Below, piece after piece: positions 13,693 to 52,500 of a stretch of DNA of 64,000 bases. The notes under the pieces are model-generated. The model made no database searches. It worked only from the letters and a program-made list of their open reading frames with translations, and was not told the origin of the DNA. This stretch comes from Kiritimatiellia bacterium (lineage in GTDB: Bacteria > Verrucomicrobiota > Kiritimatiellia > RFP12 > UBA1067): positions 6,277 through 70,276 of the forward strand of contig JAKSOW010000001.1 in assembly GCA_024405395.1 (NCBI GenBank), given 5' to 3'. The position numbers and the translations under genes were made by a program. How positions within the stretch are numbered: position 1 is the stretch's first letter; each line of letters starts with the position of its first letter.

Positions 13693-13705
13693 TGCTATCT
13701 CAAAT

Positions 13706-13744
13706 GTAAAAAGCGGGAGGAAGCACTTTCATGCATCCACCCGC
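13706..13744 (-). terminator. candidate rho-independent terminator after the 13779 gene
   Basis: On the minus strand, GCGGGTGGA pairs with TCCTCCCGC (one T:T mismatch) and is followed by TTTTT. A second perfect hairpin, TTATTCGCC-GAAG-GGCGAATAA, lies at 13757..13778 directly after the stop. Confidence 0.45.
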
Positions 13745-13778
13745 CTTGTCTCAATTATTCGCCCTTCGGCGAATAACC

Positions 13779-19574: not shown

Positions 19575-19860
19575 TGCATGCTCCTGACACCATTTCGCCG
19601 GACAGTCCCGCTGTCAGCGATTCCTAAGATTGTACCTAATATTCCTTCTAAAGTAAAGAATGAATAATACTAATATTAGGTTGTTCAATAACTCCAATAA
19701 CTTCTTCAAGTACTGTAAAATCAAGGCCTGCGTGACTTTTCAGCTGTTCATTTCCCATTCAGTCGGATGTTCAGCGCTGTTGATGATTCGGCGGGCTTTA
19801 GACAACTGTCCACAAGTGGATGGGTTCTGCACAACTTCTCTACAGGGGATGAACAGATTA
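19575..19860. promoter_or_regulatory. dnaA-dnaN intergenic region with AT-rich tract and DnaA-box-like palindrome (possible oriC part)
   Basis: This 286-nt gap has an AT-rich run at about 19621-19725. CTGTCCACA (19806..19814) matches 7 of 9 positions of TTATCCACA. It abuts AGTGGAT to form TCCAC-AA-GTGGA. TGAACA/TGTTCA motifs are also present. Confidence 0.35.
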
Positions 19861-21297: not shown

Positions 21298-21435
21298 GAT
21301 CTTGTTGTCCTAGTGGACACTATTTAACCATATTTCCCGAACAAAACCACGCAAAAGAAATGAAAAGAAATGAACAAGTTGTGAACAGATACCTGTTCAT
21401 AGCTTAATGCAGGCTTTGCCTATCTGACTTGCGGA
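21298..21435 (-). promoter_or_regulatory. dnaA upstream region: extended -10-like TGGTTAAAT plus three TGAACA/TGTTCA sites
   Basis: The minus strand reads ...CTATGAACAGGTATCTGTTCACAACTTGTTCATTTC...ATATGGTTAAATAGTGTCCACTAGGACAACAAGATCATG. The TGn-extended -10 lies at 21322..21330. Confidence 0.35.
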
Positions 21436-23775: not shown

Positions 23776-23875
23776 CTATAATGCCTTTTGTTTATGAACC
23801 AATATTTTCCCAAAAAGACGTGATTTTGGCAACCCTTTTATTTGACGCATAACGCATCATGTTCTACGGATCATC

Positions 23876-30853: not shown

Positions 30854-30932
30854 GCTCGTTGTGCGATAGGATGAATTTTAATAGTTGAAAACAAATCGGC
30901 ATGCGGTCATCCGCAGAAAGGCAGAAAGAAGA

Positions 30933-37853: not shown

Positions 37854-40800
37854 ATGGGAAACTATGGTCTCAAATCCGGTTTGGGTGGCCGCCTTGCGGC
37901 TGCCCTCTGCCTGTTTGCGACGGCGGTGCACGCCGCCTCCGCGACCTTTTCCCATGATGCCAATGCCACGGTGGCCGATTCCCGGCGCCTGACGGAGGCC
38001 ACCACGATTGCCGTCGCCAAGGATGCGCGTGTCGTCTACTCCGGCGTGTTGTCGGGGCCCGGCTCGTTGCGGCTGACGGGTGGTGGCACGCTGGTGCTGA
38101 CGGGCGCCAACACGTTCACGGGCGGCGTCACGGTTGAGGCGGGCTACCTCGTGTGCTCCAACGCCTTGGCCCTGGGCACGGGCACGGCAACCATCATGGG
38201 CCAGCGGGACGACTATTCGGGCCCCTGCGAGATTGGCTTCTGGGGTGTTGGCCCCGGCCGTTCGGATTCGGTGACGTACGCCAATCCGATTCGCGTGACG
38301 GGCTCCTCGACGGCCCTCTATCCGGCGCTCTACTTCTTCGGGCAGAACTGCGTCCTGAACGGCAGCGTCACCGCCGAGCAGGACCTTGTCTTCTACGAAG
38401 ACCACAATGCCGCCAAATCCATCAATAGCGCCAACTGGGACCGTTATCAGCATGTGCTTTCGGCCACCTTCAACGGTCCGGTGACCGCCGCCGGAATGAT
38501 CGGCTATCGCGGCATGACGCGCTGGGCCTTCAACGGCAAGGTCACGACCCCGCTTTTCCACACGGCGCTCACGCGCCCGAAACGTCCGGACGACATTGAC
38601 TCGACTGACGGCAACAACAATGCCCATGGCGCCTTCCTGCTCAATGCGGCCAACGCCATCGGCGAATTCAGGAATGCGCGTTCGCCCGTTTACCTGGGCG
38701 TGGAGAATGCGCTTGCGGGCTCGGTCCTTTCCTGGGAGAAGAACACCTCGCTCTGCACGGTGGGCTTCTTCTACAGTCAGCTTTACGGCGGCAGCTACCG
38801 CAACCAGCGTGTGGCCGGGCTTTCCAGCGTGTCGGCACCCGTGGCGGCCAGCTACGATTGGCGGGTTCATGGCGCCTCTTCGGCGAATCGGTTTGTGCTG
38901 GCGGGCACAGGCGCAGCGGCGGAGACTTTCGCGGCCAGTGCCGCCCTCACGGGATCGATGTCCTTCATTGTGGATGCGAGGCCCGACTACTCGCAGACGC
39001 TTCAAGACCGCCACCACACGTTTTCGGGCACGCTCGCCGTCTCCAACGGAACCCTGAACGTGGAACGTGGTTCGTTCTCCAATGTGACGGCGCTTGTGGT
39101 GGGCGCACACGGCACCCTGCGCCTCGACACGCCGCTCTCGGGCGGGCAGGTCTTCCCCAAGCTGTCTTCGCTGGAGATCGTGAAGGGCGGTGTGCTGGCC
39201 GTGCCCGAAACCATGCTGCTCACCACGAAGACGCTCATTGTGAACGGCACGAAGAAATCGCCCGGTCTCCATTACGCCGAAAGCGTGCCCGGCTTCACGG
39301 GGGCGGCGATAGTCTGCCTCAATGCCGACGGCTCCATGCCGGTGGTGGGCGATCTGACGGGCGCTCAGACGATCCGCGAACCGTTTGCGGCTCTGGGTGA
39401 CCGCATGTGGCGGCTTGCCGCGGGCGAGACGCTCACGTTTGAGGGAACGCTTCGCCGTGTCGAGGGCATGGTCACGGTGGTGAGCCCCAAGAACACCGCC
39501 AATCCGGCACGCGTGGTGCTCAAGGGCACCAACTCGATCGACGGGGCGCTCGTCACCACGGCGGCGGTGCTGCAGGTCTCCGGTCTGCTGGCGAACTCCT
39601 TGCGTCAGGACCAGGGCCAGGCCGCCAATCGCGGCGGGAGTGTGGTCACGGTGGATGGCTATCCGGGGGGCGGCTATCTTTTCGTCTCCAATGCCGTCAT
39701 CGAAAAGCCGGTCTATCTGCATGGCTCGGGCTATGGCATTCTGAGGAGTGCCGCCGCCACCACCACCATCCTGAAGGGCCACGTCGCCTGGCCCACGCCC
39801 TGGCCCGGCTTTACGGCGGCGAAGGATTCGGAGATCGTCTTCGAGGGCGGCTTCACGAGTGGCCACACCCTGCGCACAAACGGACAGGGCACATTCCGTG
39901 TGCGCAATACGCCGGTGACGGCCACGGCGAGCGTGGGCTGGAACATCGGCGGCGGCACCGTGGCGTTGGATGTGTGCGGCAACAAGTTCAGCTATCTGTG
40001 CGCCGGGCACTACAACGGCGACACGGCGGCGATTGTGTGCAACGCCGATCGGGCCTTTGACGTCACCGCGAACGCGGGCCTGGTGAACGGCTGCTGGTGG
40101 AACGATGGCTACAGCGGATTCTCGGTGATGACGTCTGGCTCCGGAATCGTGGACCTGAAGGGCACGGTGCAGCAGGTGAACAAGTACGCGGGCAGCAGCC
40201 GTTCGACCCTGCGGGGCGAGGCGGGCGCCCGGCTGGAGATTCTCCAGCAGACGCCGGACTCGCGGCTCAAGGCCCCCGAGCTCTACTTCGCGTCCGCGAT
40301 CGAAGGCGAGGTGACGGTGGCGATGTACGGCCCCGGCAGACTCGTCCTCACCAACCGCGTATTTGAGACGACGGGCGGATTGGAGGCCACGAACGGCATT
40401 GTGGAGATTGCCCGGGGGGCGCGTTGGCTGGGCACGGGTGACGTGACCTTGCGTGGCTCGGCCAGGCTGGTGCTGCATGAGCGCGACCAGCTGGCCCCCT
40501 CGGTGCATCTGCGGATCGGTGAGGCGGCGAAGATCGAGATTCCCGCCGGCACGTCCCTGACGGTAAAGACCGTGGACGTGTGGGATGGCACGGGCTGGCT
40601 GCCGCTGAAGACGGCCGGCAGCCATGCGGCGGGCGACGGCGGTATGCTTGCGGGATTCATCACGGGCGGCGGCACGCTGAACATTGTTGGCGAAGAGGTC
40701 GCCGCAGGCGTGGCGATGCCGCTGGAGTGGAATGTCACCTATCCGGTGGATGTGCCGTATGAGGTGGAGATCGACACGGCCAAACTTCATGCGCTGGGCG

Positions 40801-43800
40801 GCATTGCCGCCAACACGGGCTTCCGTGTGTTCGCCACCGTGGCGGGCGCCATGCGCGAAGTGGGCGTCAGCTGTCTGGCGGGACGCGTCCCCGGCAGGGT
40901 CGCCCTGCGCTTCTCGGTGCCGGCCGGGACGACGGCCCTGACGTGTCGGGCGGGCGTGGGGCGGCTGGAGCTGCTGGACGCACAGACGGCCGACAATCTC
41001 TTTGCGGGCGTGTTGGCGTCCGCCACGGGATGGGTATGCGACAAGACCGTTTCCTGTGCTGTGCGCACGAATGGTCTGTCCATCGCCTCGACGGGTGCGG
41101 GCAACTATTATGCGAAGTGCAGCGTGCCCGTGCCCGCCGATTGGCGGGGCAAGAGCGTGCGCCTGGAAATCGACGCCACGAGCGAGAGCGTGCTGCCGTG
41201 GGGCGGCTTCATCCGCCTGTGGCAGTATGACGCCAACGGCACGCGCCTGCCCGAGAGTGTCTCCGATGTGCGTTGGACGAGTCACATGCGCCCGCCGGAG
41301 AAGCTCGCCCAATATCGCGAGAATGGCCGCATCCATCCAGACTGTGCCACCGTGGAGGCGCGTTTCGAGGTGCGGGGCACGTCGACGGCCTTTGACCTCT
41401 ATGGTCTGCCGCTGGCGGATGAGGAGGACACGAAGGCCCGCCTGCTGGTTTCGCGTCTGGTGCTGCGGCGGGCGGCGGAATTGCCGTTCCCGAAATATGA
41501 CGACCGCTTCTTCTCCGCGGGCGTCTCGGGGGATGCGGGCGATACGGCGCTTCGCCTGGGCGGCGAAGACCACAACGGCTTCTTCTACGCCACGCACAGC
41601 CAGGCGGTTTGGAGCGAGGGAATGGATTCGCGTGATGAGGCGCAGAATTTCTTCCCGGCGGGAGATGGCACCGTCGAGGCGTGGTTCAGGGCCGATGCCT
41701 GGCCAAGCAAGGAGACGTATCTCTTCCAGGGGTTCCAGGGCTACTCGGCCCAGAAGTCCGCCAATGGGCGAAGCGAACTCTTCTCGTTGCGGTACACGCA
41801 TTCCTCGAAGCGCCTTTACCTTTATATGAAGGATCGGCAGAACACGGTGTTCTCAGCGCAAGCCACACAGGCGCTGCCGGTGGGCGAGTGGGTGCACATC
41901 GCCGCCCAGTGGAGCGTCAACGGCCAGGCCAGGGTCTTCGTGAACGGCAAGGAGGCGCTGGCACGCGACATCACGGGCTTCAGGCCGGTTGACCTCAGTG
42001 CCGAGCAGTATCCCGATGAGGAGATTGTGACGGAGTTCTTCCTTGGCTCGACTTCCGCCTCGGCCCGCAACACCGAAACGGCGGAGAATGCGGGCGCGCC
42101 TTTCTTCCAGGGGGCCGTGGATCAGCTGCGCGTCTCCACGGGCACGCGCTATGCGGGCGCGTTCACGCCGGCCAGACGTCATGTGCCGGATGCCGCCACA
42201 CGTGCGCTCTTCGCGTTCGACCGATCCTACGATGGCGAGTCGGGCGGCGGATGCCGATTCATCCGCGGTTCGATCCGCTCGTTTGCGGACCGTGTGCGGC
42301 ACACGCTTGACCTTGGCGGCAATGAGGTTCCGTACTGGCCCGCCGAGATCCTGCCCGAGAACGACCACCGCCAGGTCCTGAACATCGACAACTATCCCGA
42401 TCTGCCGACGGTGGACGAATTCCTCTCGGCCCGCCGAGCCACAAATGCGGTCTTCGATGTCTCCCCGGGCGCCACGTTCACGTTGAATCTTCCGGGCACG
42501 GTCTACCGCGACTACGTGGAGATCGCGAACACGGGAACATCGCCGCTGCTCTACCCCACGGTCGTCAACGCCGGCGAGATCGATCCCCGCAGCTTTGGCG
42601 ACATCCGCGACACGCTGGGGCTGGCCGAGCTGGATGATCGGGCATGCGCCAACAAGATTTTCCAGTTCGTGCTGGGCGCAAGCGACTACTTCATGAACCA
42701 CAGCGCCTTCTTTGCGCCCGGCACCGACACGCCGGGCGATGTGGAGTACCAGGCACTCATGATGCTCAACGGCTACTGCGGCTTCGAGTGCGGCCCGCTG
42801 AACAGCATGACGAAGAATCTCTTCACCTGTTCGGGCGGGCTGCCCTCTTCGCAGACGGGCGGCTATGGCCACAGCTTCGAGCAGGTGTTCTATGACGGCA
42901 AGAACCACATCTACGATCTGTCGGCCCAGAAGTTCTTTCCCGCGATGGACAACGAGACGGCGGCCTATCTTGAGGAAGCGGGCGATCAGCCGGGCATCTT
43001 CCACCGGATCGGCGGCAATCCCGACCACTTCATCCGCAAGTCCCGCCGTGGTGCCGATGCGTCTTCGCCGTCGTTCAGCGAGAAGGTGGCGATGAGCCTC
43101 AATCCTGGCGAGCGCCTGCGCGTGTGGTTCGACAATGACGGCGAAGGCAACGACCTCCAGTGCAGCAAGAGCTCCGTGCAGAACGATTCCGCCCTCCACA
43201 AGGAGAACTACGACGACCGCTGCCATGCCGTTGCGGGATCGGCCGGCAGCATCTGGCGTGTGCACCGCCACTTCCCGCACTACGGCAATGGATTCCTCGT
43301 GTACGAAGGACCGGTGGATGTGGCGAATCCCGCCTTTGCCGCCTCGACGAAGTCCTCTGCCGTCTATGCGGTGAAGAGCTGCTATCCCATCACCGCGGCC
43401 GAGTACTCGGCCAAGCTGCAGGATGGCACCTATGCGCCAATGCAGCTCTCCACCGACAGGGGCGCAACCTGGCGTGCGCTGCCGGCTGGCAAGGTGCGCT
43501 ATCCCGTGCGTGCGCGCACCGAATACCTTGTGCGGGCGATGGCAGATCCCGCGAAGGTCGTGCGTTTCTCGGCCATCACCGAGGTGCAGGTGAACGTGCG
43601 CATCTTCACGGGCGGCGTGCACGCCGGGGCCAATGCCCTGACCTTCAAGGCCAATGGCGGAGAGGCGGCTCGCGTCACGCTGGGCTGGCGTGAGCCGGCG
43701 AAGCGCCTGGAGATCCGGGGCGGCGTCTATTCGGGCACGATCCCCGGCAGCGAACGGCAGCTCGTGCTGCTTGATCCGGCCAGCACGCTGACGCTTGACG

Positions 43801-46800
43801 TGGCGGGGGCCTCCGAGCAGGCGGTTGTGCGTGCCTATGGCGGACTGTCCGCCACGCTGGCGGATGGGCGGCTCACGCTGGCGGCCGGAACGTTGGCGCG
43901 TGGCTTCGGGGCCGTGGACGTGATCGACGGCGATGCCGTCAAGCAGTTCACCGTGCTGGTGCTGGCGAATGCGCGCCTGGCCACGGCGGCGAATGGCGGG
44001 CTTGTGCCCGCGGGCACGACGCATCTGCTGCAGCCCGATGTGGAGCGCGTGCAGCCCTGCCTCAACTTCACGAACGCGGCTTCGTCGGCCACCGTCGGCT
44101 TTGCCGAATTGCCGGCGGGCAAGTACGCGGTTCTGCCGCTCGACCGTTTTGAAAGCCATCCGGCCGTGGTGGGGAGCGCACCCCTGCTTGTGTCGGTGCC
44201 GGGCATTGCCGGCAGCTTCAAGATGAGCTATGGCGCCAACGGCACCTGCACGTTCCTCAAGGCCCAATACGGCAAGGCGGGCGTCACGAAGCGCGCCAAC
44301 TTCAAGTGGGGACACGTCACCACGACCGAAGGCAACTCCTACTACTCGGGCCAGATGCGCGTGTTCGACGTGCCGCAGGCGTTCTCGTCGTTGGCGGTGT
44401 CGTGCAATGCCACGGTCACGAACGGCGTTGAGCTGGCGGCCGTGCTGGTGGCGCCCTGCGACAGGGCGGGCGAAACCGAAGAGCTCTACTGCGATCTCCT
44501 GAAGGTGCTCTGCGGCTACAACTGTCAGCCGTGGCGCGTGAACGCCGGCACAGAGGCGGCGAAGGGAACGCTGACGCTGCACCCCACCTACGTGAACTGC
44601 AGCGTCGACTTCGAGTACGCCGAGGACATCGCGGGCCTGGCGGTCGAATACCGGGCCGCGGGCGCGAACGCCGCCTGGAGCCGTGCGCCGCGCTTCCCGC
44701 GCTTCACCGACAAGTGCGAGAACCGCGGCTCCATCCTTGATCTTGCCGAGGACACGGCCTACGAGGTGCGGATCGTGACGCCCGGCGGTGCCGTGCTGGC
44801 GCACGACACGTTCCGCACCTGGCGGAGCGACGTGCCGGTGGCGCGCACGGTGACGATCGACCCCGCCACCAGCTCGGTGCCGATCACGATCTCCGCCCGT
44901 GGCACGGAAGACGGTTGGATCCGCTATGTGCTCAAGCCCGGCAGCGTGCTCACGAACAGGACGGTCTCGGTTGGCGGCAGTTCGGCGGCGGTGACGTTTG
45001 ACGTGACGGGCGCAAGGAACGTGCTTCTCGACGACATGCGGCTGGTGGGCGGCGCACGCTACGTCATCCGCGTCACGAATTCGCAGGGCGTGCGGATCCG
45101 CAACTGTGACCTCTCCGGCTGGGGACGCGTGGGCGTGCCGCGATATGATCTGCCGGAAGGCGGAAAGTTCTACTACGACTACAACGGCACGACCAAGGCA
45201 ATCAACGGCGACCCGGCCATCTACATCGGATCGGGCGCGTCTGCGGTCACGGTGGAGCGCTGCTATGTGCACGATCCCCGTGGGCACGCCAACAGCTGGT
45301 ACTACTCGCATCCGGCCGGTCCGCAGGCGGTGATGATGTTCCGCCCCGACCATTCCGTCGTCTTGCGCTGGAACGACTTCTGCGGCGGCGATTGGCACCG
45401 CTACAACGACGTCGTTGAGGGGGATGGAAACTTCTTCGCCAACGGCGGCTTCAACCGCGATGCCGACGTCTACGGCAACTACATGGCCTTCTCGCAGGAC
45501 GATGCGATTGAGCTCGACGGCGGACAGCGGAATGTGCGCTGCTTCGACAATCGCTTCGAGTACAACTACTGCGGCGTCTCCGTGCAGGGCTGCATGACGA
45601 GCCCCTCCTACGTCTACCGCAATCTGTTCTCCGGGATGTGCGACGTCTTTTCGCTGAAGGGCCAGACCCTGAAGACCTCCACCAACACCTCGGGCGTGGA
45701 CGCCGTCACCTACGTGTGGGACAATTTCATGTGGGGCGGCGGATCGGGCACGTCCTTCCCCAATGCGAGCAAGTACGACTGGACACTTGAGGTGACGGGC
45801 AATGTGCTTTGCGCCAACCAGAAGATCTCCAACTTCGGGATTGCGACCGCCCGCAGCGTGAATGAAGGCAATGTTGAGGGTGCCCAGGTCAACGAAGGCC
45901 AGCTCGACGCCTCCTTCCCCAGGCGCAGTCTGCCGTTCGTCCTTGACCGTGCGCGCCTCACGGGACCGCGGGTGGTGGGCGGCAAGGCGGGGGCGTCGCG
46001 GCCCCTCGGGTCCGTTGACGTCGGGGCGGCGGTGTTCCGGTGGGAGGGCGCGAATGGCGTGACGTCGCACTGGCCGTTTGTCTGCACCGCCCCCGTCGCG
46101 ATTTCCACCAACGCCGTCTGCACCTACGATCTGCGGCGGGATCTCGTCTTTGCCGCCGATGTCTCCTCTGGGCCGTTGCCGTTCGTCAAGACGGGCCCGG
46201 GCGCCATGGTGCTCGCCGGCGACACGGATGGCACGGCCTTCAGCTTCGGCACTTCCCAGACGGGCAATGGCTATCCGGCGTTGCCGGGCTATGCGACGCG
46301 CTTCTTCCTGCCCGCGGACGGCTCCATGCCCACCACGGGCTTCGCCGGGATCTTCTCGCTGATGGACGGGCGGTTCGTCGTGAACCGCGGGCGCATGACG
46401 GTGAAGCAGACGAGTTCGCGGGCGTTCATCGGCGGCTGGACGGCCGATGCCGGCGAGACGGAGAAGGATGTGGCCTTTGAGGTGAATGGCGGCAGGGTGG
46501 ACTTCAACACCATCGTCTACCTCGGCCATCGCCACGGCCTGCTCAACTTCAATACGCCGAATGGTCCGGCGAAGGCCTGCCTCAACGTCAACGGCGGAAC
46601 GTTCTTCATGGGTTCGTCGAAGAGTTTTGTCATGGGCAGCTATGACGTCCCCTCGGGGCGTGTGCTCAACAGCGACCTTCGGCTAAACGTGGGCCGGGAT
46701 GGCGAGTTCGCCATGTCGCCGCAGTACTATGCGCCGTTCAGCGTTCCGCAGCGTCGTGGACAGGCCGCCGCCATCACCGTGAACGGCGGTCGTTTCCGCA

Positions 46801-48383
46801 GCAACGTGGTGCTTGTGGGCACCGCCGCCAGTGCCGACGACGTCACCGCTCCAGTTTCGGTCACGGTGGCGAATGGCGGCGAATTCCGCTGCGAATCGTT
46901 CACCAACAATCTTCTGCAGAAAACCTCCGCGTCTCCGCTCACGATTGTCGTCGGCGAGGGCGGGGCGTTCCTGGTGGACCACTTCGCGAATCTTCCCGGC
47001 GGCATCGTCGACATGACCGTGGACGGCGGCATTCTGGGCAATGCGCAGATCAACGGGCGGCAGCTGGGCGCGCGCAAGATTCTTGCGGCCGCAAACTTCG
47101 CGAAGCTGGCGGTGGGGCCGAAGGGCATGACCGTTCGGGCAAAGGGGAAGACGCCGGCGGGCGAGGCGATCACCTGTGTGGTCGGCACGCCGCTTTCCGG
47201 CTCGGGCCCGATCACGATTGACGCCGACCGCGGCAACAGGGTGGAGTTCGCGGACGGCAGCGCCTTTGAGGGCCGCCTGGTGATGAACGCCGGTGCGTTG
47301 CGCATTCCGGCGGGGATGACGCTCACGGCCGACGACATCTCCGGGCTGGACGCGCTTGAGCTTGAGGGCACGCTCGTCTGCCAGGTCGCCGATGGCGCCA
47401 AGATCTCACTGAATTGTCCGGTGACGGGTGGCGGCCGGATCGTCAAGACGGGCGGCGGCACGTTGCGCCTGGCCGCCCATGTGGCGGCAGACGTCCTGGA
47501 GGCACGCGAGGGCGTGGTGGAGGTGGGGGCTTCCTTCAATGCCGTTCGCCGGGTGCGCTTCGGACGCGGCATCGTGAAGCTCGCCGCCAAGGAGGCCCTG
47601 TCGCTCGCGGAACTGGAATGGACGGATCCTTTGGCGGCAATGGACACGTGCGCCTATCTGGACCTGAATGGCTTCGCCAACACCAATGGCGTGCTCGTCT
47701 CGGTGACGCCCGCTGCGGCGGACGGACACTTCTGGGTGAAGAACAGCGGGTCCGGTACGGTCGTGTGGACGCTCGTCAATCGTGCACCGGGCACGAATGT
47801 TGCCTATCTGGCCACCGCCGAACGCGTGCGCGTGAACATCAAGCGCGTTTCCGTCCCGAGCCCCCGGGGCACGCAGATCATGAGCAATCTGGTGGTGAGG
47901 GCCAATGGCTATGGTTTCACCGCCGCCTGCGAGAACTATGTGCTGGCGGGCGATTGCCATTTCCCCAACCTTGAGAATCTGCAGTTCAACAGCGGGGCGA
48001 AGACTGTGCTCGAGTTCGCGAACCCGAAGCCAGACGCGTTTCCGTCGCTGCGGCAGATCGTCATCGACAGCCACACGCTCACGCTCAACGACCGGGCCCT
48101 CGCCTCGCTGTATGCCCGGCGGCGGAAGTGGACGTACTCCAGCAATCAGGCCTCCAGCCTTGTGCTGCCGCCGAACAGCCGTCTGGTTGCGGCCGCCTGG
48201 ATCGAGCGTGGCGTCTCGCCCAGCGTGAATCACGCCAAGGGCGTGTACGGCCCCGAACAGTATGCCGAGGGCTGGCCCAATCGCACGCTCAAGCCCGCCT
48301 CGGCCGGCATTCGCGTGCTGTCCTCCGGTCCGGGGGCGGTGACGCTGCCCGACGAGGCCAACTTCATGTTCTTCATGCGATAG
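37854..48383 (+). CDS. giant (3509 aa) exported multidomain surface protein
   Basis: The signal peptide is ...LAAALCLFATAVHAASA. PATR-type repeats such as GGGTLVLTGANTFTGGVTVEAGYL occur at the N-terminus and again near the C-terminus (GGGTLRLAAHV). The LamG_3-like sequence is DGTVEAWFRADAW...GEWVHIAAQW...GAVDQLRVS (~41560-42150). A Cys-His-Asp core lies at ~42770-42920. An FN3-like region plus a beta-helix (VIRVTNSQGVRIRNCDLSG...) lies at ~44530-45850. Confidence 0.85.
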   Translation: MGNYGLKSGLGGRLAAALCLFATAVHAASATFSHDANATVADSRRLTEATTIAVAKDARVVYSGVLSGPGSLRLTGGGTLVLTGANTFTGGVTVEAGYLVCSNALALGTGTATIMGQRDDYSGPCEIGFWGVGPGRSDSVTYANPIRVTGSSTALYPALYFFGQNCVLNGSVTAEQDLVFYEDHNAAKSINSANWDRYQHVLSATFNGPVTAAGMIGYRGMTRWAFNGKVTTPLFHTALTRPKRPDDIDSTDGNNNAHGAFLLNAANAIGEFRNARSPVYLGVENALAGSVLSWEKNTSLCTVGFFYSQLYGGSYRNQRVAGLSSVSAPVAASYDWRVHGASSANRFVLAGTGAAAETFAASAALTGSMSFIVDARPDYSQTLQDRHHTFSGTLAVSNGTLNVERGSFSNVTALVVGAHGTLRLDTPLSGGQVFPKLSSLEIVKGGVLAVPETMLLTTKTLIVNGTKKSPGLHYAESVPGFTGAAIVCLNADGSMPVVGDLTGAQTIREPFAALGDRMWRLAAGETLTFEGTLRRVEGMVTVVSPKNTANPARVVLKGTNSIDGALVTTAAVLQVSGLLANSLRQDQGQAANRGGSVVTVDGYPGGGYLFVSNAVIEKPVYLHGSGYGILRSAAATTTILKGHVAWPTPWPGFTAAKDSEIVFEGGFTSGHTLRTNGQGTFRVRNTPVTATASVGWNIGGGTVALDVCGNKFSYLCAGHYNGDTAAIVCNADRAFDVTANAGLVNGCWWNDGYSGFSVMTSGSGIVDLKGTVQQVNKYAGSSRSTLRGEAGARLEILQQTPDSRLKAPELYFASAIEGEVTVAMYGPGRLVLTNRVFETTGGLEATNGIVEIARGARWLGTGDVTLRGSARLVLHERDQLAPSVHLRIGEAAKIEIPAGTSLTVKTVDVWDGTGWLPLKTAGSHAAGDGGMLAGFITGGGTLNIVGEEVAAGVAMPLEWNVTYPVDVPYEVEIDTAKLHALGGIAANTGFRVFATVAGAMREVGVSCLAGRVPGRVALRFSVPAGTTALTCRAGVGRLELLDAQTADNLFAGVLASATGWVCDKTVSCAVRTNGLSIASTGAGNYYAKCSVPVPADWRGKSVRLEIDATSESVLPWGGFIRLWQYDANGTRLPESVSDVRWTSHMRPPEKLAQYRENGRIHPDCATVEARFEVRGTSTAFDLYGLPLADEEDTKARLLVSRLVLRRAAELPFPKYDDRFFSAGVSGDAGDTALRLGGEDHNGFFYATHSQAVWSEGMDSRDEAQNFFPAGDGTVEAWFRADAWPSKETYLFQGFQGYSAQKSANGRSELFSLRYTHSSKRLYLYMKDRQNTVFSAQATQALPVGEWVHIAAQWSVNGQARVFVNGKEALARDITGFRPVDLSAEQYPDEEIVTEFFLGSTSASARNTETAENAGAPFFQGAVDQLRVSTGTRYAGAFTPARRHVPDAATRALFAFDRSYDGESGGGCRFIRGSIRSFADRVRHTLDLGGNEVPYWPAEILPENDHRQVLNIDNYPDLPTVDEFLSARRATNAVFDVSPGATFTLNLPGTVYRDYVEIANTGTSPLLYPTVVNAGEIDPRSFGDIRDTLGLAELDDRACANKIFQFVLGASDYFMNHSAFFAPGTDTPGDVEYQALMMLNGYCGFECGPLNSMTKNLFTCSGGLPSSQTGGYGHSFEQVFYDGKNHIYDLSAQKFFPAMDNETAAYLEEAGDQPGIFHRIGGNPDHFIRKSRRGADASSPSFSEKVAMSLNPGERLRVWFDNDGEGNDLQCSKSSVQNDSALHKENYDDRCHAVAGSAGSIWRVHRHFPHYGNGFLVYEGPVDVANPAFAASTKSSAVYAVKSCYPITAAEYSAKLQDGTYAPMQLSTDRGATWRALPAGKVRYPVRARTEYLVRAMADPAKVVRFSAITEVQVNVRIFTGGVHAGANALTFKANGGEAARVTLGWREPAKRLEIRGGVYSGTIPGSERQLVLLDPASTLTLDVAGASEQAVVRAYGGLSATLADGRLTLAAGTLARGFGAVDVIDGDAVKQFTVLVLANARLATAANGGLVPAGTTHLLQPDVERVQPCLNFTNAASSATVGFAELPAGKYAVLPLDRFESHPAVVGSAPLLVSVPGIAGSFKMSYGANGTCTFLKAQYGKAGVTKRANFKWGHVTTTEGNSYYSGQMRVFDVPQAFSSLAVSCNATVTNGVELAAVLVAPCDRAGETEELYCDLLKVLCGYNCQPWRVNAGTEAAKGTLTLHPTYVNCSVDFEYAEDIAGLAVEYRAAGANAAWSRAPRFPRFTDKCENRGSILDLAEDTAYEVRIVTPGGAVLAHDTFRTWRSDVPVARTVTIDPATSSVPITISARGTEDGWIRYVLKPGSVLTNRTVSVGGSSAAVTFDVTGARNVLLDDMRLVGGARYVIRVTNSQGVRIRNCDLSGWGRVGVPRYDLPEGGKFYYDYNGTTKAINGDPAIYIGSGASAVTVERCYVHDPRGHANSWYYSHPAGPQAVMMFRPDHSVVLRWNDFCGGDWHRYNDVVEGDGNFFANGGFNRDADVYGNYMAFSQDDAIELDGGQRNVRCFDNRFEYNYCGVSVQGCMTSPSYVYRNLFSGMCDVFSLKGQTLKTSTNTSGVDAVTYVWDNFMWGGGSGTSFPNASKYDWTLEVTGNVLCANQKISNFGIATARSVNEGNVEGAQVNEGQLDASFPRRSLPFVLDRARLTGPRVVGGKAGASRPLGSVDVGAAVFRWEGANGVTSHWPFVCTAPVAISTNAVCTYDLRRDLVFAADVSSGPLPFVKTGPGAMVLAGDTDGTAFSFGTSQTGNGYPALPGYATRFFLPADGSMPTTGFAGIFSLMDGRFVVNRGRMTVKQTSSRAFIGGWTADAGETEKDVAFEVNGGRVDFNTIVYLGHRHGLLNFNTPNGPAKACLNVNGGTFFMGSSKSFVMGSYDVPSGRVLNSDLRLNVGRDGEFAMSPQYYAPFSVPQRRGQAAAITVNGGRFRSNVVLVGTAASADDVTAPVSVTVANGGEFRCESFTNNLLQKTSASPLTIVVGEGGAFLVDHFANLPGGIVDMTVDGGILGNAQINGRQLGARKILAAANFAKLAVGPKGMTVRAKGKTPAGEAITCVVGTPLSGSGPITIDADRGNRVEFADGSAFEGRLVMNAGALRIPAGMTLTADDISGLDALELEGTLVCQVADGAKISLNCPVTGGGRIVKTGGGTLRLAAHVAADVLEAREGVVEVGASFNAVRRVRFGRGIVKLAAKEALSLAELEWTDPLAAMDTCAYLDLNGFANTNGVLVSVTPAAADGHFWVKNSGSGTVVWTLVNRAPGTNVAYLATAERVRVNIKRVSVPSPRGTQIMSNLVVRANGYGFTAACENYVLAGDCHFPNLENLQFNSGAKTVLEFANPKPDAFPSLRQIVIDSHTLTLNDRALASLYARRRKWTYSSNQASSLVLPPNSRLVAAAWIERGVSPSVNHAKGVYGPEQYAEGWPNRTLKPASAGIRVLSSGPGAVTLPDEANFMFFMR

Positions 48384-48386: not shown

Positions 48387-49271
48387 ATGCAGACGAGAAT
48401 GAACAGGATCTTCATGATGGTGGTGGCCGCAGTTGGCCTGGCGCATGCCACGGTGGTCGACCCCGGTGCCGGCGTTGCCGTGAACCTGGGCACGCTCACG
48501 GGCATGGAGAACGTGGAGACGTGCTCCGGCATCGTCACCGCCAGGCTTGGCAACGACTTCGGCGGCACGCTGAAGGCCTCGGGCGGCACGTTGGCGCTTA
48601 CGGGATTTGGTGCGCCCACGGCGCTTACGGTGCGAACGAAGTGGACGGATGCCGATGCGCCGCGTTCCCTGCCGTTCACGGTGCGCAAGAATGCGGAGTT
48701 CGACTGGTTTGAGGTGGAGCCCGCGGGCGGCATCCTCTCGCCTGGCACCGAGACGGAGTTCACCGTGCTGCTCAACACGGCGGTGATGACCAATCGCCAT
48801 TTCTATCGCGGGGCGTTCTTCGTGGCGGCCACGAATGGCCTGTCTCGTCCGGTGAGCGTAAGTGTGGAGACGGACTTCGTGCCGCCGTTTCACGCCGAGC
48901 GCCCTGGCGACATCGCCCTCTATGCCGATGTCGCCCATCCGGCTTCCGGCTCGGCCGAGGCGGGAGAGGCGGAATATGCCTTTGACGTCACCGTGGCCAC
49001 GAACTACTATTTCATGATCCACGGATCGGCGATGACAAAGCAGACGATTGCCGCCGCCGTGGACGGCGACTCCTATGCGAACAGCGTACAGCAGGTGATG
49101 TACTATCCCATTTGGACGATGATCGCCCCAGGCAAGGCCTTTGGCGACTACATGCGCGCCTATCCGCTGACGGTCGGGCGCCATGTGATCCGCATCAAGG
49201 CGGACTATGCCGCCTTCCCCTATGACGGGGTGGTGCTCACCACCAATCCCACCTCCTTCGAACCACGGTGA
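48387..49271 (+). CDS. exported protein, Ig-like + jelly-roll/CBM-like (hypothetical), coupled to the giant gene
   Basis: The start is 3 nt after the giant gene's TAG. The signal peptide is MNRIFMMVVAAVGLAHA. FDWFEVEPAGGILSPGTETEFTVLLN resembles BACON/Ig-like modules. The C-terminal YYFMIHG...GRHVIRIKADYAAFPYDGVVLT looks CBM-like. Confidence 0.65.
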   Translation: MQTRMNRIFMMVVAAVGLAHATVVDPGAGVAVNLGTLTGMENVETCSGIVTARLGNDFGGTLKASGGTLALTGFGAPTALTVRTKWTDADAPRSLPFTVRKNAEFDWFEVEPAGGILSPGTETEFTVLLNTAVMTNRHFYRGAFFVAATNGLSRPVSVSVETDFVPPFHAERPGDIALYADVAHPASGSAEAGEAEYAFDVTVATNYYFMIHGSAMTKQTIAAAVDGDSYANSVQQVMYYPIWTMIAPGKAFGDYMRAYPLTVGRHVIRIKADYAAFPYDGVVLTTNPTSFEPR

Positions 49272-49536: not shown

Positions 49537-52500
49537 ATGAGTTTGACAATCAACGATTTCCGCAATGTCCTCGGCAAGGTGAATGATGGTGACGTCGTCT
49601 TCGGACGGACCGCGGCTGGCCTGGAGGACAAGAACGCCATCGAAAAGGCCAATTACGGCGGCACAATCGCCAAGCTGTTCCGCAACTACCGCACTGTGGT
49701 CTCGGATCCTGCCCGCAACCGCGAGATCCGTCAGGCCTTCATGAGCGCCATCGAGAATTCGCGGGAAGGTCGTGCGGCTCAGGCGGAGACGCTGAACGCC
49801 ATCCGGCAGCAGCTTGGCCTCGAGCCGGCGGACCAAATTGCCGCCCGACCGCTCACCCGACGCGACGTGCAGGCGATCCTGGAGCGTCTTGACGCCGACG
49901 TGAAGGTGCACAAGCTGGTTGTTAAGGAATTCGCCTCGCTCGCCAACCGCGGACTTTATGACGCCAACATGCTGAATGAGGTCACGGCGATTCTGGATGA
50001 ACCCCAGATGCGGACGATCAAGGCCTACAAGTCGCTTCTGCCGAAGAACTATCTGGGCCTGACGTCGGACGCCGCCACCAAGTTCGTCAAGAACAACATC
50101 AACGTGATCCGTGCCAATGTGGCCGGCGAGCTCTACATGCTGCTGCGTGAAGGACGTTTGAAAAATCCCGCCGCCCGTTTGACGCGGTATGACGTCGAAC
50201 TGACCGTCCGCCAGGTCGTACGCGACATCATGAAGGCCTATGCGGCGGGCGTTCCGGCACAGTCGAGCGTGACGCGCCTTCCGAAGGTGCCTGAGCAGCC
50301 GCAGGAACTGGATGCGAATCTTAAGGCGCGTTTCGACGTCCAGCCTGGCGAGGAGGGGGGCGGGACCAAGGCGGTGCCCAAGCTGAAGGCTATTCTGCCG
50401 GTGATTTTCGGTGATGCCGGCGAGGCTCCCGAGAATGGCCTCAGCTACGCCAAGCTGGCGGCCAAGGGGCTCTCGGCCATGCTGATGGACGACCTCTCGC
50501 GTCTGTTGGTGCGCCTTTCCGACGAAAACCACCACAACCTGAATGTCGTGAGCGACCAGGCCAACGCCGTGGCCGGTGGTCTGCTGGGGGTCGATCTCGC
50601 CGAGCTGGCCGCACTTGATCCTGCGGACCTGAAGAAGCTCGGCCGTCGGATTCTGCGTGAACTCGCGGGCGCAGGCGTCGATCTGGCTGCGCTGCCGCCT
50701 GGGGCGCTTCTTCAGCGGGTGGGCACGAAGATCCAGGAGGCGCTCCACCCCGCCGCGACCGACAAGCTGATCGCCGACCGTGTCGCGAACCTCTTCCCGA
50801 ACGCAACGAACGAGGTGAAGGAGAACGCCACGAAGGCGATCAAGGAACGCCTCGCAGGGGCGACGGACATCCAGAAGATGTCGGTGGCGGCCTACCGCAA
50901 GGCGGTGTTCAAGGCAGCTCTGCAGGGCGTGGCGGTGCCCGCCGAGGCGGATTCAAGCGTGCTCGACGAAATCGCACGCGATGTGGAGATGTCGATGAAC
51001 GAGACGGCCGAGACGCGTCGCAATCGTTTCATCGAGATAGGAAGCGACAAGGCCTGCAGCATGTTCTTCGCACTGTTCTCCGTCCACAAAGATGAAACGA
51101 AGGAACTTCTCGGCATGCTGTTGGCGCTCGTGGTGAAGTTCGGCCCAACGCGTTTGTACGAGGCCGGGATTCTTGAGAATGACCAGAGTTTCGGGGTCAA
51201 GGACGTGACAGGTAACGCAGCAAAGGAGGAGTTGTTGGTGTCGCGCATCCGTACGCTTGCCAACGAACTGAGCACCGCCGATGCGCGTTTGGTTGCCGAC
51301 TACGTGAAGTGTGGTGCCGCAGCCGCCGACAGTGGCATCCGCCTTGGCTTCGCCAATGCCTGGACGGACAAGCCGAAAGGGTACATGCCCGTGTTGGAGG
51401 CCTTCCGAGAGGGGCTTATCGATTTCGCGAATCTCAATCCTGTCGCCTGCCGTCGTCTGCTGCCCATATTCGTGAGTGTGTTCGCCGTGCAGGGCGGCGA
51501 AGAGACCAGTGGTTATGTCGAGCGCATTCCTCTGAACGAGTCGGATGAGGCCGTCGCTAATGGCGAAGATGTGGAGACGATCCGCGTGATCTATCCCGAG
51601 GTGCGTACGGCCCAGCTGAAGATGGGGAGCGACCTCTCGCGGTTCAGCATTGGGGAGCCGGAGCCTGATATGCGCAAGCGTCAGCTCTTCAACGCACCCG
51701 GCGCCCGATTCTCGTTGTCGTGCGGCTTCGGAACGGTTGACGTGGCGGCGATTCTGAAGCTTCTTTCGGAATGCGGCATCGATCCAGCTCGCCTCAACGA
51801 GCCTGAGACCTACCGGCAGTTCCTCGTCCTGCAGCATCTGGCGTCCGCCAACGGCTTCCACCTTGAGGGGCTCAAGGAATGGAGCGAGCGCACGGTGGGC
51901 AAGCCGTTTGCCGAGATCCACCTGATTGACATCGCCAAGCTGCTTGTGAAGCAAGGTGACGCGGACGCCGTGATCAAGGACAAGATGGACGACTACGGCA
52001 TCTTCTCCGGCAACAAGCCCAAGGTGGCGAACTTCGTCCGCGGACGCGTCACGCTGCAGGAGGCGAAGCTGTCCAAGGAGGAGATGGTGCAGCTTCGTCA
52101 GGCGCTTCTGTCGCTGACGGGCGCAGACGCCACCGTCACAACAAAGGTGATGGGCTATGACGTTACGCTCAGCCGCAGCGTGAACGGCACGCTGACGGGT
52201 GTCTTCGACGGGATGCCGTTCGCCTATCCGCGTCCGCTGAACGAGCTGGTGGCCGAGATCGAGAACGCGATCGTCGCCCAGGCCGGCGAATATTCGGTGG
52301 ACGACGTGAAGGCCATTCTGCCGCAGATCGAGAACGGCGTGCCTGTGGGGATGCCGATTGGCCGTGCCCGCGAGCTCGCCGTCGGCGTGCTCGCCGCCAA
52401 GCTCGGTGAGCTGCCCGTGACGTTCAGTGCCTTCTCCACGGTCGATCTCGTCACGAAGGCCGTAGCCGCCCTTGATGGCCGCTTCACGAAGGCGAACCTG

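What the first reader, a model, noticed from the sequence alone, without database searches (positions are those of the whole stretch)
37854..48383. 3509-aa exported protein with an unusual domain mix and no recognisable anchor
The protein combines, in order:
- PATR (autotransporter-associated beta-strand) repeats at both ends;
- a LamG_3-type lectin fold;
- a transglutaminase-like core;
- an FN3-like module;
- a pectate-lyase-type beta-helix.

It ends in ...GAVTLPDEANFMFFMR, without an autotransporter beta-barrel, LPxTG, PEP-CTERM-length hydrophobic tail or T9SS-like CTD that I can recognise. How it is exported and retained is unclear. The 294-aa exported protein starting 3 nt downstream is a candidate partner.
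Basis: partly seen in the sequence, partly recalled or inferred. Interest (0 to 1): 0.6.

Follow-up and report, generated by a model that had tools for sequence, protein, structure and literature searches.

The report
Giant fused exoenzyme with new C-tail
A real 3,509-residue exported protein of an uncultured gut Kiritimatiellae bacterium is three normally separate neighbouring genes fused into one (a beta-helical stalk protein, an uncharacterised 1,300-residue lectin plus Cys-His-Asp enzyme, and a beta-helix glycanase-like enzyme). It ends in a seven-residue hydrophobic-basic tail shared by this whole class of proteins, which may be their unknown sorting or anchoring signal.

Summary
The ORF 37854..48383 is real. 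It is uninterrupted and has a Sec-type signal peptide. An end-to-end orthologue (59.5% identity, 3496 aa) occurs in an independent metagenome, followed by the same 294-aa gene.

The unusual domain mix is a fusion of a gene set that recurs in gut and rumen Kiritimatiellae/Lentisphaeria MAGs, usually as separate adjacent genes:
- A: a PATR beta-helix protein.
- B: a ~1300-aa LamG protein with invariant Cys/His/Asp.
- C: FN3, a pectate-lyase-fold beta-helix, and a BACON/CBM-like module.

In this window C is split. Its binding module is the downstream 294-aa protein, which carries the N-terminal cap of a PATR protein. The rest of that PATR protein forms the giant's C-terminus, so the two genes are reciprocal chimeras.

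No barrel, PEP-CTERM, LPXTG or T9SS domain is present. However, every complete PATR-bearing relative ends in a tail of the form G-x-x-hydrophobic(3)-[R/K]-COOH (here NFMFFMR). The loci held 26 strict matches against 0.34 expected. The tail reappears at the new C-terminus after fusions, and no model describes it.

The function of the tail, the substrate and the route across the outer membrane remain inferred. The likely context is glycan degradation, based on GH88, GH20 and GH28 neighbours and fusions.

The parts
37854..37943 (+). Signal peptide (aa 1-30, likely cleavage after AHA or ASA)
   Evidence: Sequence shows a basic n-region, a 12-residue hydrophobic core and an A-x-A motif. Orthologues P0003 and P0251 also start with signal peptides.
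37944..40658 (+). Module A: N-terminal PATR beta-helix region (aa 31-935), ending GGGTLNIVGEE. This is the spot where stand-alone PATR proteins terminate with the tail.
   Evidence: Pfam PATR and TIGR02601 above threshold. BLAST: aa 507-945 match P0122 853-1284; aa 51-2243 match P0003. Junction comparison.
40665..44582 (+). Module B: core family (aa 938 MPLEWN... to aa 2243 ...LCGYNCQPWRV). It is the equivalent of the stand-alone ~1300-aa proteins.
   Evidence: 312 homologues at 40-57% identity, all starting SP+PLEWN and ending LCGLNCxPWRV. AlphaFold model of aa 1044-2243 has pLDDT 92.9. There is no solved full-length analogue.
41652..42137 (+). LamG/pentraxin-like lectin domain inside the core (aa 1267-1428)
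42606..43043 (+). Candidate catalytic segment with invariant YCGFECGPLN (C1642, C1646), H1673 and D1688
   Evidence: Invariant in alignments of 66 and 70 sequences. Cys lies at the N-terminus of a helix, and His and Asp lie on the next hairpin in the model. Transglut_core is only weakly hit.
44616..44873 (+). FN3-like domain (aa ~2255-2340), the first part of module C
   Evidence: Profile of the stand-alone C family matches titin FN3 domains (E 6.7e-5) and FN3con.
44886..45923 (+). Right-handed parallel beta-helix, a candidate glycanase or lyase (aa ~2345-2690)
45954..48191 (+). C-terminal PATR-type beta-helix body (aa 2701-3446)
   Evidence: aa 2701-3160 match P0122 63-550 at 37% identity. 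aa 2236-3509 match P0121 and P0252 at 49-51%. The model is all-beta, with pLDDT above 90 for aa ~2720-3250 and 50-75 beyond.
48192..48380 (+). Low-confidence C-terminal stretch (aa 3447-3509) ending in the tail ...LPDEANFMFFMR. The tail itself is encoded at 48360-48380.
   Evidence: pLDDT below 50 and no secondary structure. The tail family is documented. No NCBIfam sorting-domain hit.
48387..49271 (+). 294-aa partner: signal peptide, the N-cap of PATR proteins (aa ~21-86), then a BACON-like plus CBM-like module (aa ~87-294) ending TTNPTSFEPR. A second ATG at 48399 has better spacing to the AGGGG upstream.
   Evidence: aa 4-69 match P0122 3-69 at 45% identity. aa 86-294 match the C-termini of P0011, P0006 and P0002 and of the stand-alone C family at 31-45%. 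Orthologues follow P0121 (55% identity) and P0251 (61%). Pfam BACON_2 is sub-threshold.

Best explanation
The 3509-aa ORF is a genuine Sec-exported protein of an uncultured gut or rumen Kiritimatiellae bacterium. It arose by in-frame fusion of a gene set that is conserved in this lineage.

The three gene types are:
- Module A: a PATR beta-helix 'stalk' protein.
- Module B: a ~1300-aa protein of unknown function, built from beta-sandwich domains, a LamG lectin domain and a domain with an invariant Cys-His-Asp triad.
- Module C: FN3, a pectate-lyase-fold beta-helix, and a BACON/CBM-like binding module.

In this lineage C was also recombined reciprocally with a PATR gene. The beta-helix now continues into a PATR body that forms the giant's C-terminus. 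The next gene, the 294-aa protein, carries that PATR protein's signal peptide and N-terminal cap joined to C's binding module.

Inferred mechanism:
1. The protein crosses the inner membrane by Sec.
2. It acts outside the cytoplasm as a multi-enzyme on a complex acidic or host/plant glycan. The LamG and BACON/CBM modules bind substrate, and the PATR helices act as rigid spacers or adhesive stalks.
3. Localisation does not depend on any known anchor. It depends on the seven-residue C-terminal tail G/N-x-x-hydrophobic(3)-R that all complete PATR-bearing relatives share.
4. The 294-aa protein works with the giant, possibly by docking its PATR N-cap onto the giant's C-terminal PATR body.

Shown: the architecture, the homologies, the gene order, the fusions and the enrichment of the tail. 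Inferred: the catalytic activities, the substrate, the route across the outer membrane, the role of the tail and the physical association with the partner.
For: The ORF is intact and has an end-to-end orthologue with the same partner gene.

Module map from BLAST:
- giant 51-2243 = P0003 (A+B)
- giant 945-2724 = P0002 (B+C)
- giant 2236-3509 = P0121 (C 5' part plus PATR)
- giant 2701-3160 = P0122 63-550
- giant 507-945 = P0122 853-1284
- 294-aa 4-69 = P0122 3-69
- 294-aa 86-294 = C-termini of P0002, P0006 and P0011

Stand-alone families exist: B (312 hits) and C (311 hits of 660-750 aa ending FEPR).

Gene order A->B->C or parts of it recurs in loci from species-representative genomes (L006, L007, L014, L016, L020, L024-L028, L033, L039, L054, L056, L058, L062). 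Of 71 core genes, 16 are adjacent to or fused with PATR and 9 with C. See also L003 and L004.

Evidence for a glycan context:
- Family members are fused to GH28, GH88 and GH78.
- Neighbours include GH88 (6), GH20 (3), GH95, GH28 and DUF4838.
- GH20 is encoded in the window and in L005.
- LamG is present.

Invariant Cys/His/Asp.

Tail evidence:
- G at position -7 in 18 of 24 proteins, hydrophobic residues at -6 to -2, R/K/H at -1 in 18 of 24.
- 21 of 25 PATR ORFs in independent loci carry it. The four exceptions are frameshift fragments.
- 33 observed against 1.9 expected; 26 against 0.34 for the strict motif.
- It is absent from 120 of 120 C-family proteins and from most B-family proteins.
- It is regenerated after the core in A-B fusions (P0003, P0004, P0255), while the former tail site becomes an ordinary GGGTLxIxG strand (Fisher p 3e-4).
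- Tail proteins are enriched for signal-peptide-like N-termini: 23 of 33 against 187 of 660.
Against: - No enzymatic activity is demonstrated for B or C.
- The transglutaminase/papain-like assignment of the Cys-His-Asp domain is not supported by HMMs at threshold or by fold search.
- The top beta-helix hit is an adhesin (PfbA), so C could bind rather than cleave.
- The tail resembles the first strand of a PATR repeat (G-T-L-x-L-x) and could simply be a structural end-cap.
- The statistics count homologous proteins that are not independent.
- The last 63 residues are modelled with low confidence, possibly only because the alignment is shallow there.
- No secretion-system or barrel gene lies in the window or the fetched loci, so the route across the outer membrane is unknown.
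- Physical association of the 294-aa protein with the giant is untested.
Confidence: 0.6

Rival explanations
1. It is a barrel-less passenger of an autotransporter-like or two-partner system. A separately encoded outer-membrane barrel (TamA/BamA/TpsB-like) recognises the C-terminal strand-like tail as a beta-signal and exports or holds the protein at the surface.
Against: No barrel domain is found in the protein. No barrel gene lies in the 64-kb window or among 109 neighbours of related genes. Canonical beta-signals end in an aromatic residue, whereas here R or K is usual. TPS substrates use an N-terminal TPS domain, which is absent.
Confidence: 0.15
2. There is no sorting signal. The protein is a soluble periplasmic or freely secreted (for example T2SS-dependent) multi-enzyme, and the tail is only the last beta-strand or cap of PATR-type beta-helices.
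For: The tail looks like a truncated PATR repeat start (GGGTLMIIR against G-x-G-T-L-x-L). It is too short to span a membrane. Pseudopilin-like DUF1559/N_methyl genes are the commonest neighbours of these loci, which hints at a T2SS-related apparatus.
Against: The tail also follows the non-PATR core module in A-B fusions, and it occurs on proteins with no detectable PATR (L004 479 aa, L005 593 aa, L008 1024 aa, L020 599 and 793 aa). When a PATR end becomes internal it loses the run of hydrophobics and the basic residue. In the model the tail sits at the end of an unstructured 60-residue stretch rather than packed on the helix.
Confidence: 0.2
3. The giant ORF is an artefact of metagenomic assembly or binning (a chimeric join, or loss of stops between three genes). 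GenBank's 2253-aa call is then the real gene.
For: GenBank annotates only aa 1257-3509 (P0001). In relatives the modules are often separate genes.
Against: An independent assembly carries a 3496-aa orthologue aligned end to end at 59.5% identity with the same downstream gene. Each junction type also exists separately in other samples: A-B in P0003 and P0004, B-C in P0002, P0006 and P0011, and C-PATR in P0121 and P0252. The GenBank start removes the signal peptide and the first ~320 residues of the conserved core, so it is the annotation that is truncated.
Confidence: 0.03

Closest known systems
Type Va (classical) autotransporters and their PATR-containing passengers (pertactin, IcsA, Vag8)
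   Same: N-terminal Sec signal. Long right-handed beta-helical regions with PATR/TIGR02601 repeats. Enzymatic or adhesive modules carried on a beta-helical stalk.
   Different: There is no C-terminal 12-stranded barrel or alpha-helical linker. The protein ends in a 7-residue tail instead. PATR regions flank large non-helical enzyme modules on both sides.
PEP-CTERM/exosortase and other C-terminal tripartite sorting signals (LPXTG, GlyGly-CTERM and similar), common on PATR proteins of Verrucomicrobia
   Same: A strictly C-terminal, portable signature on exported proteins: a small or Gly residue, then hydrophobic residues, then a basic residue. In the giant's own subfamily an LP[DP][DE] motif precedes it, reminiscent of PEP.
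   Different: The hydrophobic run has 3-5 residues, not the ~20 needed to span a membrane. Usually a single basic residue follows. No NCBIfam or Pfam sorting model matches. No exosortase or sortase gene was seen nearby.
Multimodular polysaccharide-degrading enzymes with pectate-lyase-fold catalytic domains (PL1/PL6/PL9, GH28, GH87, GH110) plus CBM, FN3 and BACON modules
   Same: FN3, right-handed beta-helix and a BACON/CBM-like module in the C family. Genomic association and fusions with GH28, GH88, GH78 and GH20. LamG-type lectin domain.
   Different: No sequence-level membership in any CAZy-linked Pfam family. The catalytic residues are undefined. The enzyme is fused to a 1300-aa module with no characterised relative.
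Transglutaminase-like / papain-like Cys-His-Asp hydrolases (Pfam Transglut_core; includes PNGase and bacterial TGase-like proteases)
   Same: Invariant Cys at a helix N-terminus, followed about 31 residues later by His and about 15 further on by Asp, both on a beta-hairpin. The order and spacing are those of bacterial TGase-like cores.
   Different: HMM scores lie far below threshold, and no structural match was recovered. A second invariant Cys (CGFEC) and the GPLN motif are not features of the family.
OMP C-terminal beta-signal recognised by BamA
   Same: Gly followed by a pattern of alternating strong hydrophobic positions at the extreme C-terminus.
   Different: The terminal residue is usually Arg or Lys instead of Phe or Trp. 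The proteins carrying it are not beta-barrels.

Membership tests
Type Va autotransporter | C-terminal 12-stranded beta-barrel translocator (Pfam Autotransporter PF03797 / TIGR01414) | tested here: not met
   No hit in Pfam or NCBIfam at E<=0.1. The model of aa 2310-3509 shows no barrel, and the last 63 aa are unstructured.
Type Va autotransporter | Sec signal peptide and a beta-helical passenger with PATR repeats | tested here: met
   Signal-peptide-like N-terminus. PATR and TIGR02601 above threshold at aa 75-100. All-beta helical models.
PEP-CTERM / exosortase substrates | PEP motif, a ~20-residue transmembrane helix and an Arg-rich cluster at the C-terminus (TIGR02595) | tested here: not met
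   The C-terminal 70-mers of the giant and nine relatives gave no NCBIfam hit at E<=10. The hydrophobic run is 5-6 residues.
T9SS cargo | C-terminal ~80-100-aa beta-sandwich CTD (TIGR04183 and related) | tested here: not met
   No hit. The C-terminal 63 aa are predicted to be unstructured.
LPXTG / sortase substrates | LPXTG motif, a transmembrane segment and a basic tail | tested here: not met
   The sequence shows no LPXTG near the C-terminus, and no model hit.
Laminin_G_3 (concanavalin A-like lectin/glucanase superfamily) | Pfam PF13385 match above the gathering score | tested here: met
Transglutaminase-like superfamily (PF01841) | HMM match above the gathering score | tested here: not met
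   Best E 0.034 to 0.24, about 12 bits against a cut-off of 23, in 3 of 30 members.
Transglutaminase-like superfamily (PF01841) | Cys-His-Asp triad: Cys at a helix N-terminus, His and Asp on adjacent strands | tested here: inconclusive
   The invariant residues and predicted secondary structure fit. Fold searches returned only LamG and CBM matches for the multidomain model, and hhalign against the human TG2 core found nothing.
Pectin lyase-like right-handed beta-helix enzymes (PL/GH28-type) | Right-handed parallel beta-helix fold | tested here: met
Pectin lyase-like right-handed beta-helix enzymes (PL/GH28-type) | Membership of a defined CAZy family with its catalytic residues | tested here: inconclusive
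   No family-level HMM hit (Pectate_lyase_4 E 0.045). The family profile finds no solved beta-helix enzyme by sequence. Invariant acidic and His residues exist but are unassigned.
Fibronectin type III | Sequence-profile similarity to FN3 domains | tested here: met
   The C-family profile matches titin FN3 at E 6.7e-5 and FN3con at E 0.014, at the positions equivalent to giant aa ~2255-2335. Pfam itself gave no fn3 hit.
BACON / CBM (294-aa partner) | HMM match above threshold | tested here: not met
   BACON_2 scores 15.5 bits against a cut-off of 25. Assignment rests on homology to the C-terminal module of the C family, whose fold was not modelled.
Type I secretion (RTX-type) substrates | No N-terminal signal peptide, Gly-rich nonapeptide repeats, an uncleaved C-terminal signal and an adjacent ABC/MFP | tested here: not met
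   A signal peptide is present. No RTX/HemolysinCabind hit. No ABC exporter or MFP gene lies in the window.

The most novel reading that the evidence does not exclude
The seven-residue C-terminal tail ([K/R]-x-G-[T/S/L/F]-x-hydrophobic-hydrophobic-hydrophobic-[R/K]-COOH) is a new, minimal sorting or retention signal of gut Kiritimatiellae/Lentisphaeria. It would direct barrel-less PATR 'passengers' and the giant enzymes fused to them to the cell surface. It might do so by beta-augmentation of an outer-membrane partner or by direct insertion into anionic lipid or LPS. The A-B-C gene set would then encode a previously unrecognised surface-displayed glycan-processing machine, whose 1300-aa core is a new Cys-His-Asp enzyme family.
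Probability: 0.3. Interest if true: 0.75.

Novelty: new variant of a known kind. Interest (0 to 1): 0.58.

Why it matters
Kiritimatiellae and Lentisphaeria are common but uncultured glycan degraders of rumen and gut, and how they export and hold their very large enzymes is unknown.

This locus yields three testable results:
- Two large, paralogue-rich protein families have no characterised member. B has an invariant Cys-His-Asp set, and C has a pectate-lyase fold. The two are genetically linked and repeatedly fused, so they probably act on the same substrate.
- A short C-terminal tail is strongly enriched and position-specific. It could be the sorting or anchoring determinant that replaces the autotransporter barrel or PEP-CTERM in these bacteria.
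- A reciprocal domain swap between a PATR gene and an enzyme gene has been conserved across species. It gives a natural split-protein pair with which to test module docking.

The work also corrects a truncated GenBank gene model.

Tried and rejected
- A whole-protein homologue search timed out.
- The first genome-contig scan, using the single protein, found nothing. The second, using the core alignment, succeeded.
- An exact look-up of the GenBank protein P0001 found no contig on record.
- A PDB sequence search with the whole protein gave only chance-level hits to formylglycine-generating enzyme (E ~0.5) and was rejected.
- A profile search of the core against the PDB found only LamG relatives.
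- Pfam on the Cys-His-Asp segment gave weak Transglut_core hits in 3 of 30 members. It also gave more frequent but equally weak MCH hits in 13 of 30 members (E >= 0.01), treated as noise.
- NCBIfam found no sorting-domain model on ten C-terminal 70-mers.
- Literature searches on Kiritimatiellae with autotransporter, PEP-CTERM or LamG, and on PATR, found nothing on these families or on the tail.
- Considered and rejected: lipoprotein (AALC is not a lipobox); stop-codon read-through linking the giant to the in-frame 294-aa ORF (the L001 pair is out of frame); an assembly chimera.
Full report
**1. Observation**

The + strand ORF 37854..48383 is open for 3509 codons and ends ...GAVTLPDEANFMFFMR. 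Its first 30 residues have the layout of a Sec signal peptide: a basic n-region, the hydrophobic core LAAALCLFATAV, then AHA/ASA. A 294-aa ORF starts 3 nt after the stop, in the same frame.

Domain hits on the giant:
- Pfam and NCBIfam place a PATR/TIGR02601 repeat at aa 75-100.
- Laminin_G_3 lies at aa 1267-1428 (E 4e-14).
- A near-threshold Beta_helix match lies at aa 2405-2578.

GenBank holds this sequence as a 2253-aa 'MAG: LamG domain-containing protein [Kiritimatiellae bacterium]'. It is identical to aa 1257-3509. That start removes the signal peptide and the first ~320 residues of a conserved module, so the GenBank model is truncated.

The long ORF is not an assembly artefact. P0251 (3496 aa, ENA ERZ27247153) aligns from residue 14 to 3509 at 59.5% identity. 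It is followed 12 nt later by a 294-aa orthologue at 61% identity.

**2. Anatomy**

Homologue searches and BLAST divide the protein into modules that exist elsewhere as separate proteins.

| Module | Position in giant (aa) | Stand-alone equivalent |
|---|---|---|
| A | 31-935 | ~1000-1300-aa PATR proteins; giant 507-945 matches P0122 853-1284 |
| B | 938-2243 (MPLEWN... to ...LCGYNCQPWRV) | ~1300-aa family (SP + PLEWN ... LCGLNCxPWRV[RK]); 312 database clusters at 40-57% identity |
| C, 5' part | 2250-2690 | First ~470 residues of a 660-750-aa family (311 clusters) |
| PATR body | 2701-3509 | P0122 63-550 (37% identity), then a region shared with P0121, P0251 and P0252 |

The stand-alone C family continues into a ~215-residue module ending ...TDxPxSFEPR.

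The 294-aa protein has two parts. Residues 4-69 match the signal peptide and N-terminal cap of P0122-type PATR proteins (45% identity). Residues 86-294 match the C-terminal module of the C family and of the B-C fusions P0002, P0006 and P0011 (31-45% identity).

The giant's 3' part and the 294-aa gene are therefore reciprocal chimeras of a C-type gene and an A-type gene:
- SP-FN3-beta-helix | PATR body-tail
- SP-N-cap | BACON/CBM-like module

The same pair occurs in L001, where P0121 (1299 aa) is followed by a 300-aa gene with 55% identity to the 294-aa protein. It also occurs in L005. The swap is therefore old and has been maintained.

**3. Gene set and its distribution**

A scan of one genome per species, using the core alignment, returned 63 loci. 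All come from gut, rumen or faecal MAGs of Kiritimatiellae, Lentisphaeria or Victivallales. Many paralogues occur per genome.

I called ORFs in all loci and mapped them with HMMs of the modules. The order A->B, B->C or A->B->C recurs in L006, L007, L014, L016, L020, L024-L028, L033, L039, L040, L054, L056, L058, L061 and L062. Of 71 core genes, 16 are adjacent to or fused with a PATR gene and 9 with a C gene.

L003 shows A followed within ~10 nt by B, with B frameshifted in that assembly. L004 shows C followed by B.

Fusions occur in every permutation:
- A-B: P0003, P0004
- B-C: P0002, P0006, P0011-P0015
- C-A: P0253, P0254
- C-A-A-B: P0255
- A-B-C'-A': the giant and P0251

The 'unusual domain mix' is thus a fused operon.

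**4. What the modules are**

*Core (B).* The AlphaFold model of aa 1044-2243, built on a 70-sequence alignment, is confident (pLDDT 92.9, pTM 0.92). It consists of beta-sandwich domains, the LamG domain and one alpha/beta domain.

The alpha/beta domain carries invariant residues: YCGFECGPLN (C1642, C1646), H1673 and D1688. The Cys sits at the N-terminus of a helix, and the His and Asp sit on the following hairpin. This matches the topology and spacing of transglutaminase/papain-like hydrolases. Pfam Transglut_core is hit only weakly, in 3 of 30 members with best E 0.034.

*FN3 and beta-helix (C).*
- The FN3 call is supported by the C-family profile matching titin FN3 domains (E 6.7e-5).
- It belongs to no defined family.
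- Its many invariant Asp/Glu/His/Arg residues suggest an active or metal-binding site.

*Context.* The genomic context points to glycan breakdown:
- B is fused to GH28, GH88 and GH78 in some proteins.
- Among 109 same-strand neighbours of A/B/C genes, GH88 (6), GH20 (3) and GH95 occur.
- GH28 and DUF4838 lie in L004.
- GH20 lies in the window at 58449-62222 and next to the orthologue in L005.

GH88 acts on the unsaturated uronates made by polysaccharide lyases (established knowledge). That makes a lyase role for C an attractive but untested inference.

The commonest neighbours are pseudopilin-like DUF1559/N_methyl proteins, with 11 and 9 of the 109.

**5. The C-terminus**

No known anchor was found:
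- There are no barrel, PEP-CTERM, LPXTG or T9SS hits on the whole protein.
- None appear on the last 70 residues of the giant and nine relatives.
- The model of aa 2310-3509 has no barrel, and its last 63 residues have low confidence and no secondary structure.

The ends of relatives, however, are far from random. All complete PATR-bearing proteins retrieved end in a short tail. Examples are GGGTLMIIR, PRGTCLYMLLK, RRGTMFVLW, SRGTVLIFK, GQGTLVIFR, TFGTVIVVR, KPFVIWFH and, for the giant, ANFMFFMR.

The tail profile over 24 non-redundant proteins is:
- Position -7 is Gly in 18.
- Positions -6 to -2 are hydrophobic (mean Kyte-Doolittle 2.5, against -0.5 for the B and C families).
- Position -1 is R, K or H in 18.
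- A basic residue often precedes the Gly.

Enrichment in the independent genome loci:
- 21 of 25 ORFs with PATR modules carry the tail. The four exceptions are ~500-aa frameshift fragments.
- 12 of 668 other ORFs carry it, and two of those are PATR proteins by Pfam.
- Against the frequency of the same pattern at internal positions, 33 tails were observed where 1.9 were expected.
- For the strict pattern, 26 were observed where 0.34 were expected.
- These probabilities are inflated because the proteins are related.

The tail is position-specific rather than domain-specific:
- In A-B fusions the old tail site becomes an ordinary PATR strand (GGGTLNIVGEE, GGGTLRIVGAD).
- A new tail then appears after the core's normal end: P0003 ...PWKVGTGKPPRGSTCMLR, P0004 ...GFGVFLK, P0255 ...TGQTYFYLR.
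- Stand-alone cores stop at PWRV[RK] (Fisher p 3e-4).

The tail also occurs on exported proteins with no detectable PATR, such as L004 479 aa ...KPRGLMLIFR and L005 593 aa ...LTSCIIFR. Tail proteins are enriched for signal-peptide-like N-termini: 23 of 33 against 187 of 660 by a crude heuristic.

The tail is too short to span a membrane. It resembles a PATR strand start (G-T-L-x-L) or an OMP beta-signal with an added basic residue. I found no model or paper describing it.

**6. Mechanism**

*Shown:*
- The ORF is intact and exported.
- It is a fusion of A, B and C.
- C is split by a reciprocal swap with a PATR gene, which produced the conserved 294-aa partner.
- A specific C-terminal tail marks the class.

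*Inferred:*
- The protein is a multi-enzyme acting on a complex glycan outside the cytoplasm.
- The LamG and BACON/CBM-like modules bind substrate, and the PATR helices act as spacers or adhesive stalks.
- The tail is the retention or sorting determinant.
- The partner's N-cap may dock on the giant's PATR body, since the two are contiguous in P0122-type proteins.

*Unknown:* the route across the outer membrane. No secretion genes lie in the window, which sits near the replication origin (dnaA, dnaN, mnmG).

*Rivals:*
- A trans-acting barrel reads the tail as a beta-signal.
- There is no signal at all, and the tail is a structural cap.
- The ORF is an assembly artefact, which the orthologue excludes.

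**7. Comparison and novelty**

It works most like a barrel-less autotransporter passenger fused to multimodular CAZyme-like enzymes. It fails the defining test for autotransporters, PEP-CTERM, LPXTG, T9SS and T1SS substrates.

The B and C families are uncharacterised and appear in databases only as 'LamG domain-containing', 'right-handed parallel beta-helix repeat-containing' or 'hypothetical' proteins.

I rate the locus as a new variant of a known kind: a multimodular exported glycan-active protein with a C-terminal signal. It carries one potentially new element, the mini-tail.

Interest is moderate to high for specialists in PVC cell biology and gut glycan degradation. It would be higher if the tail proves to be a sorting signal.

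Noticed in passing
window 18480-25843 (- strand) and the GC-skew profile: dnaN (18480-19574), dnaA (19861-21297) and mnmG/gidA (23876-25843) lie together. Cumulative GC skew reaches its minimum at about 22-24 kb, so the window probably spans the chromosomal replication origin.
   Followed up: partly
window 1-14000: A block with much lower G+C (41-49%, against 61-66% to the right) and strong negative GC skew. All genes are on the - strand and mostly encode exported proteins: a reprolysin-like metallopeptidase (333-2015, ending ...SWPVVVK, which is tail-like), thioredoxin-like proteins, a Wzy_C/O-antigen-ligase-like membrane protein, HEAT-repeat proteins and a SurA-like PPIase. It may be a horizontally acquired or compositionally distinct island next to the origin.
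   Followed up: partly
window 49537-57536: Directly downstream of the pair lies a 2015-aa protein without a signal peptide. It has an ABC1/APH atypical-kinase domain only near aa 1470-1550, and the rest has no Pfam match. It is followed by a HAD hydrolase with a signal peptide and a zeta-toxin/AAA_33-like kinase. This giant cytoplasmic kinase-like protein is unexplained.
   Followed up: no
window 41622 (codon 1257 of the giant): The GenBank protein for this gene (P0001, 2253 aa) starts at internal Met1257. That start lacks the signal peptide, module A and the first ~320 residues of the conserved core, so the public gene model is truncated.
   Followed up: yes
L001 8454-9946: Immediately upstream of the P0121 gene are a 315-aa reverse transcriptase (RVT_1, E 6e-23) and a 170-aa cpYpsA-domain protein. 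The pairing looks like a retron- or DRT-type defence module.
   Followed up: no
L003 ~13870-14450: The core-family gene following PATR protein P0127 is broken by a frameshift at about 14440: MKKTIDRV...PLEWN in one frame, ...VLPETLCDVRWTSHMRPP in another. This is either an assembly error or a pseudogene.
   Followed up: partly
L011, L025, L056 (CAVJWR01...) and L052, L054 (CAVFWS01...): Species-representative records titled 'Limosilactobacillus gorillae' and 'Clostridium sp. CAG:138' carry typical Kiritimatiellae/Lentisphaeria A-B-C loci with high G+C content. These bins are probably mislabelled or contaminated.
   Followed up: no
Neighbours of A/B/C genes in L006-L068: The commonest flanking genes are small (~200-290 aa) DUF1559/N_methyl pseudopilin-like proteins: 11 and 9 of 109 neighbours. 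They often come in pairs just upstream of the core gene (for example L044, L046, L047, L048). A functional link between these T2SS-pseudopilin-like proteins and the core family is possible.
   Followed up: partly
window 28766-32099: A double-AAA ATPase with AAA_lid_6 (695 aa) is followed by a TMEM43-family membrane protein (404 aa, E 4e-73). This eukaryote-named family is rarely discussed in bacteria.
   Followed up: no
C-termini of the B and C families (P0005-P0250): Both non-PATR families also have strongly conserved extreme C-termini ending in a basic residue: ...LCGLNCxPWRV[RK] and ...TDxPxSFEPR. In some C-family members (for example P0151, P0153, P0179) a few extra residues follow FEPN. 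Whether these ends have a role is unknown.
   Followed up: no
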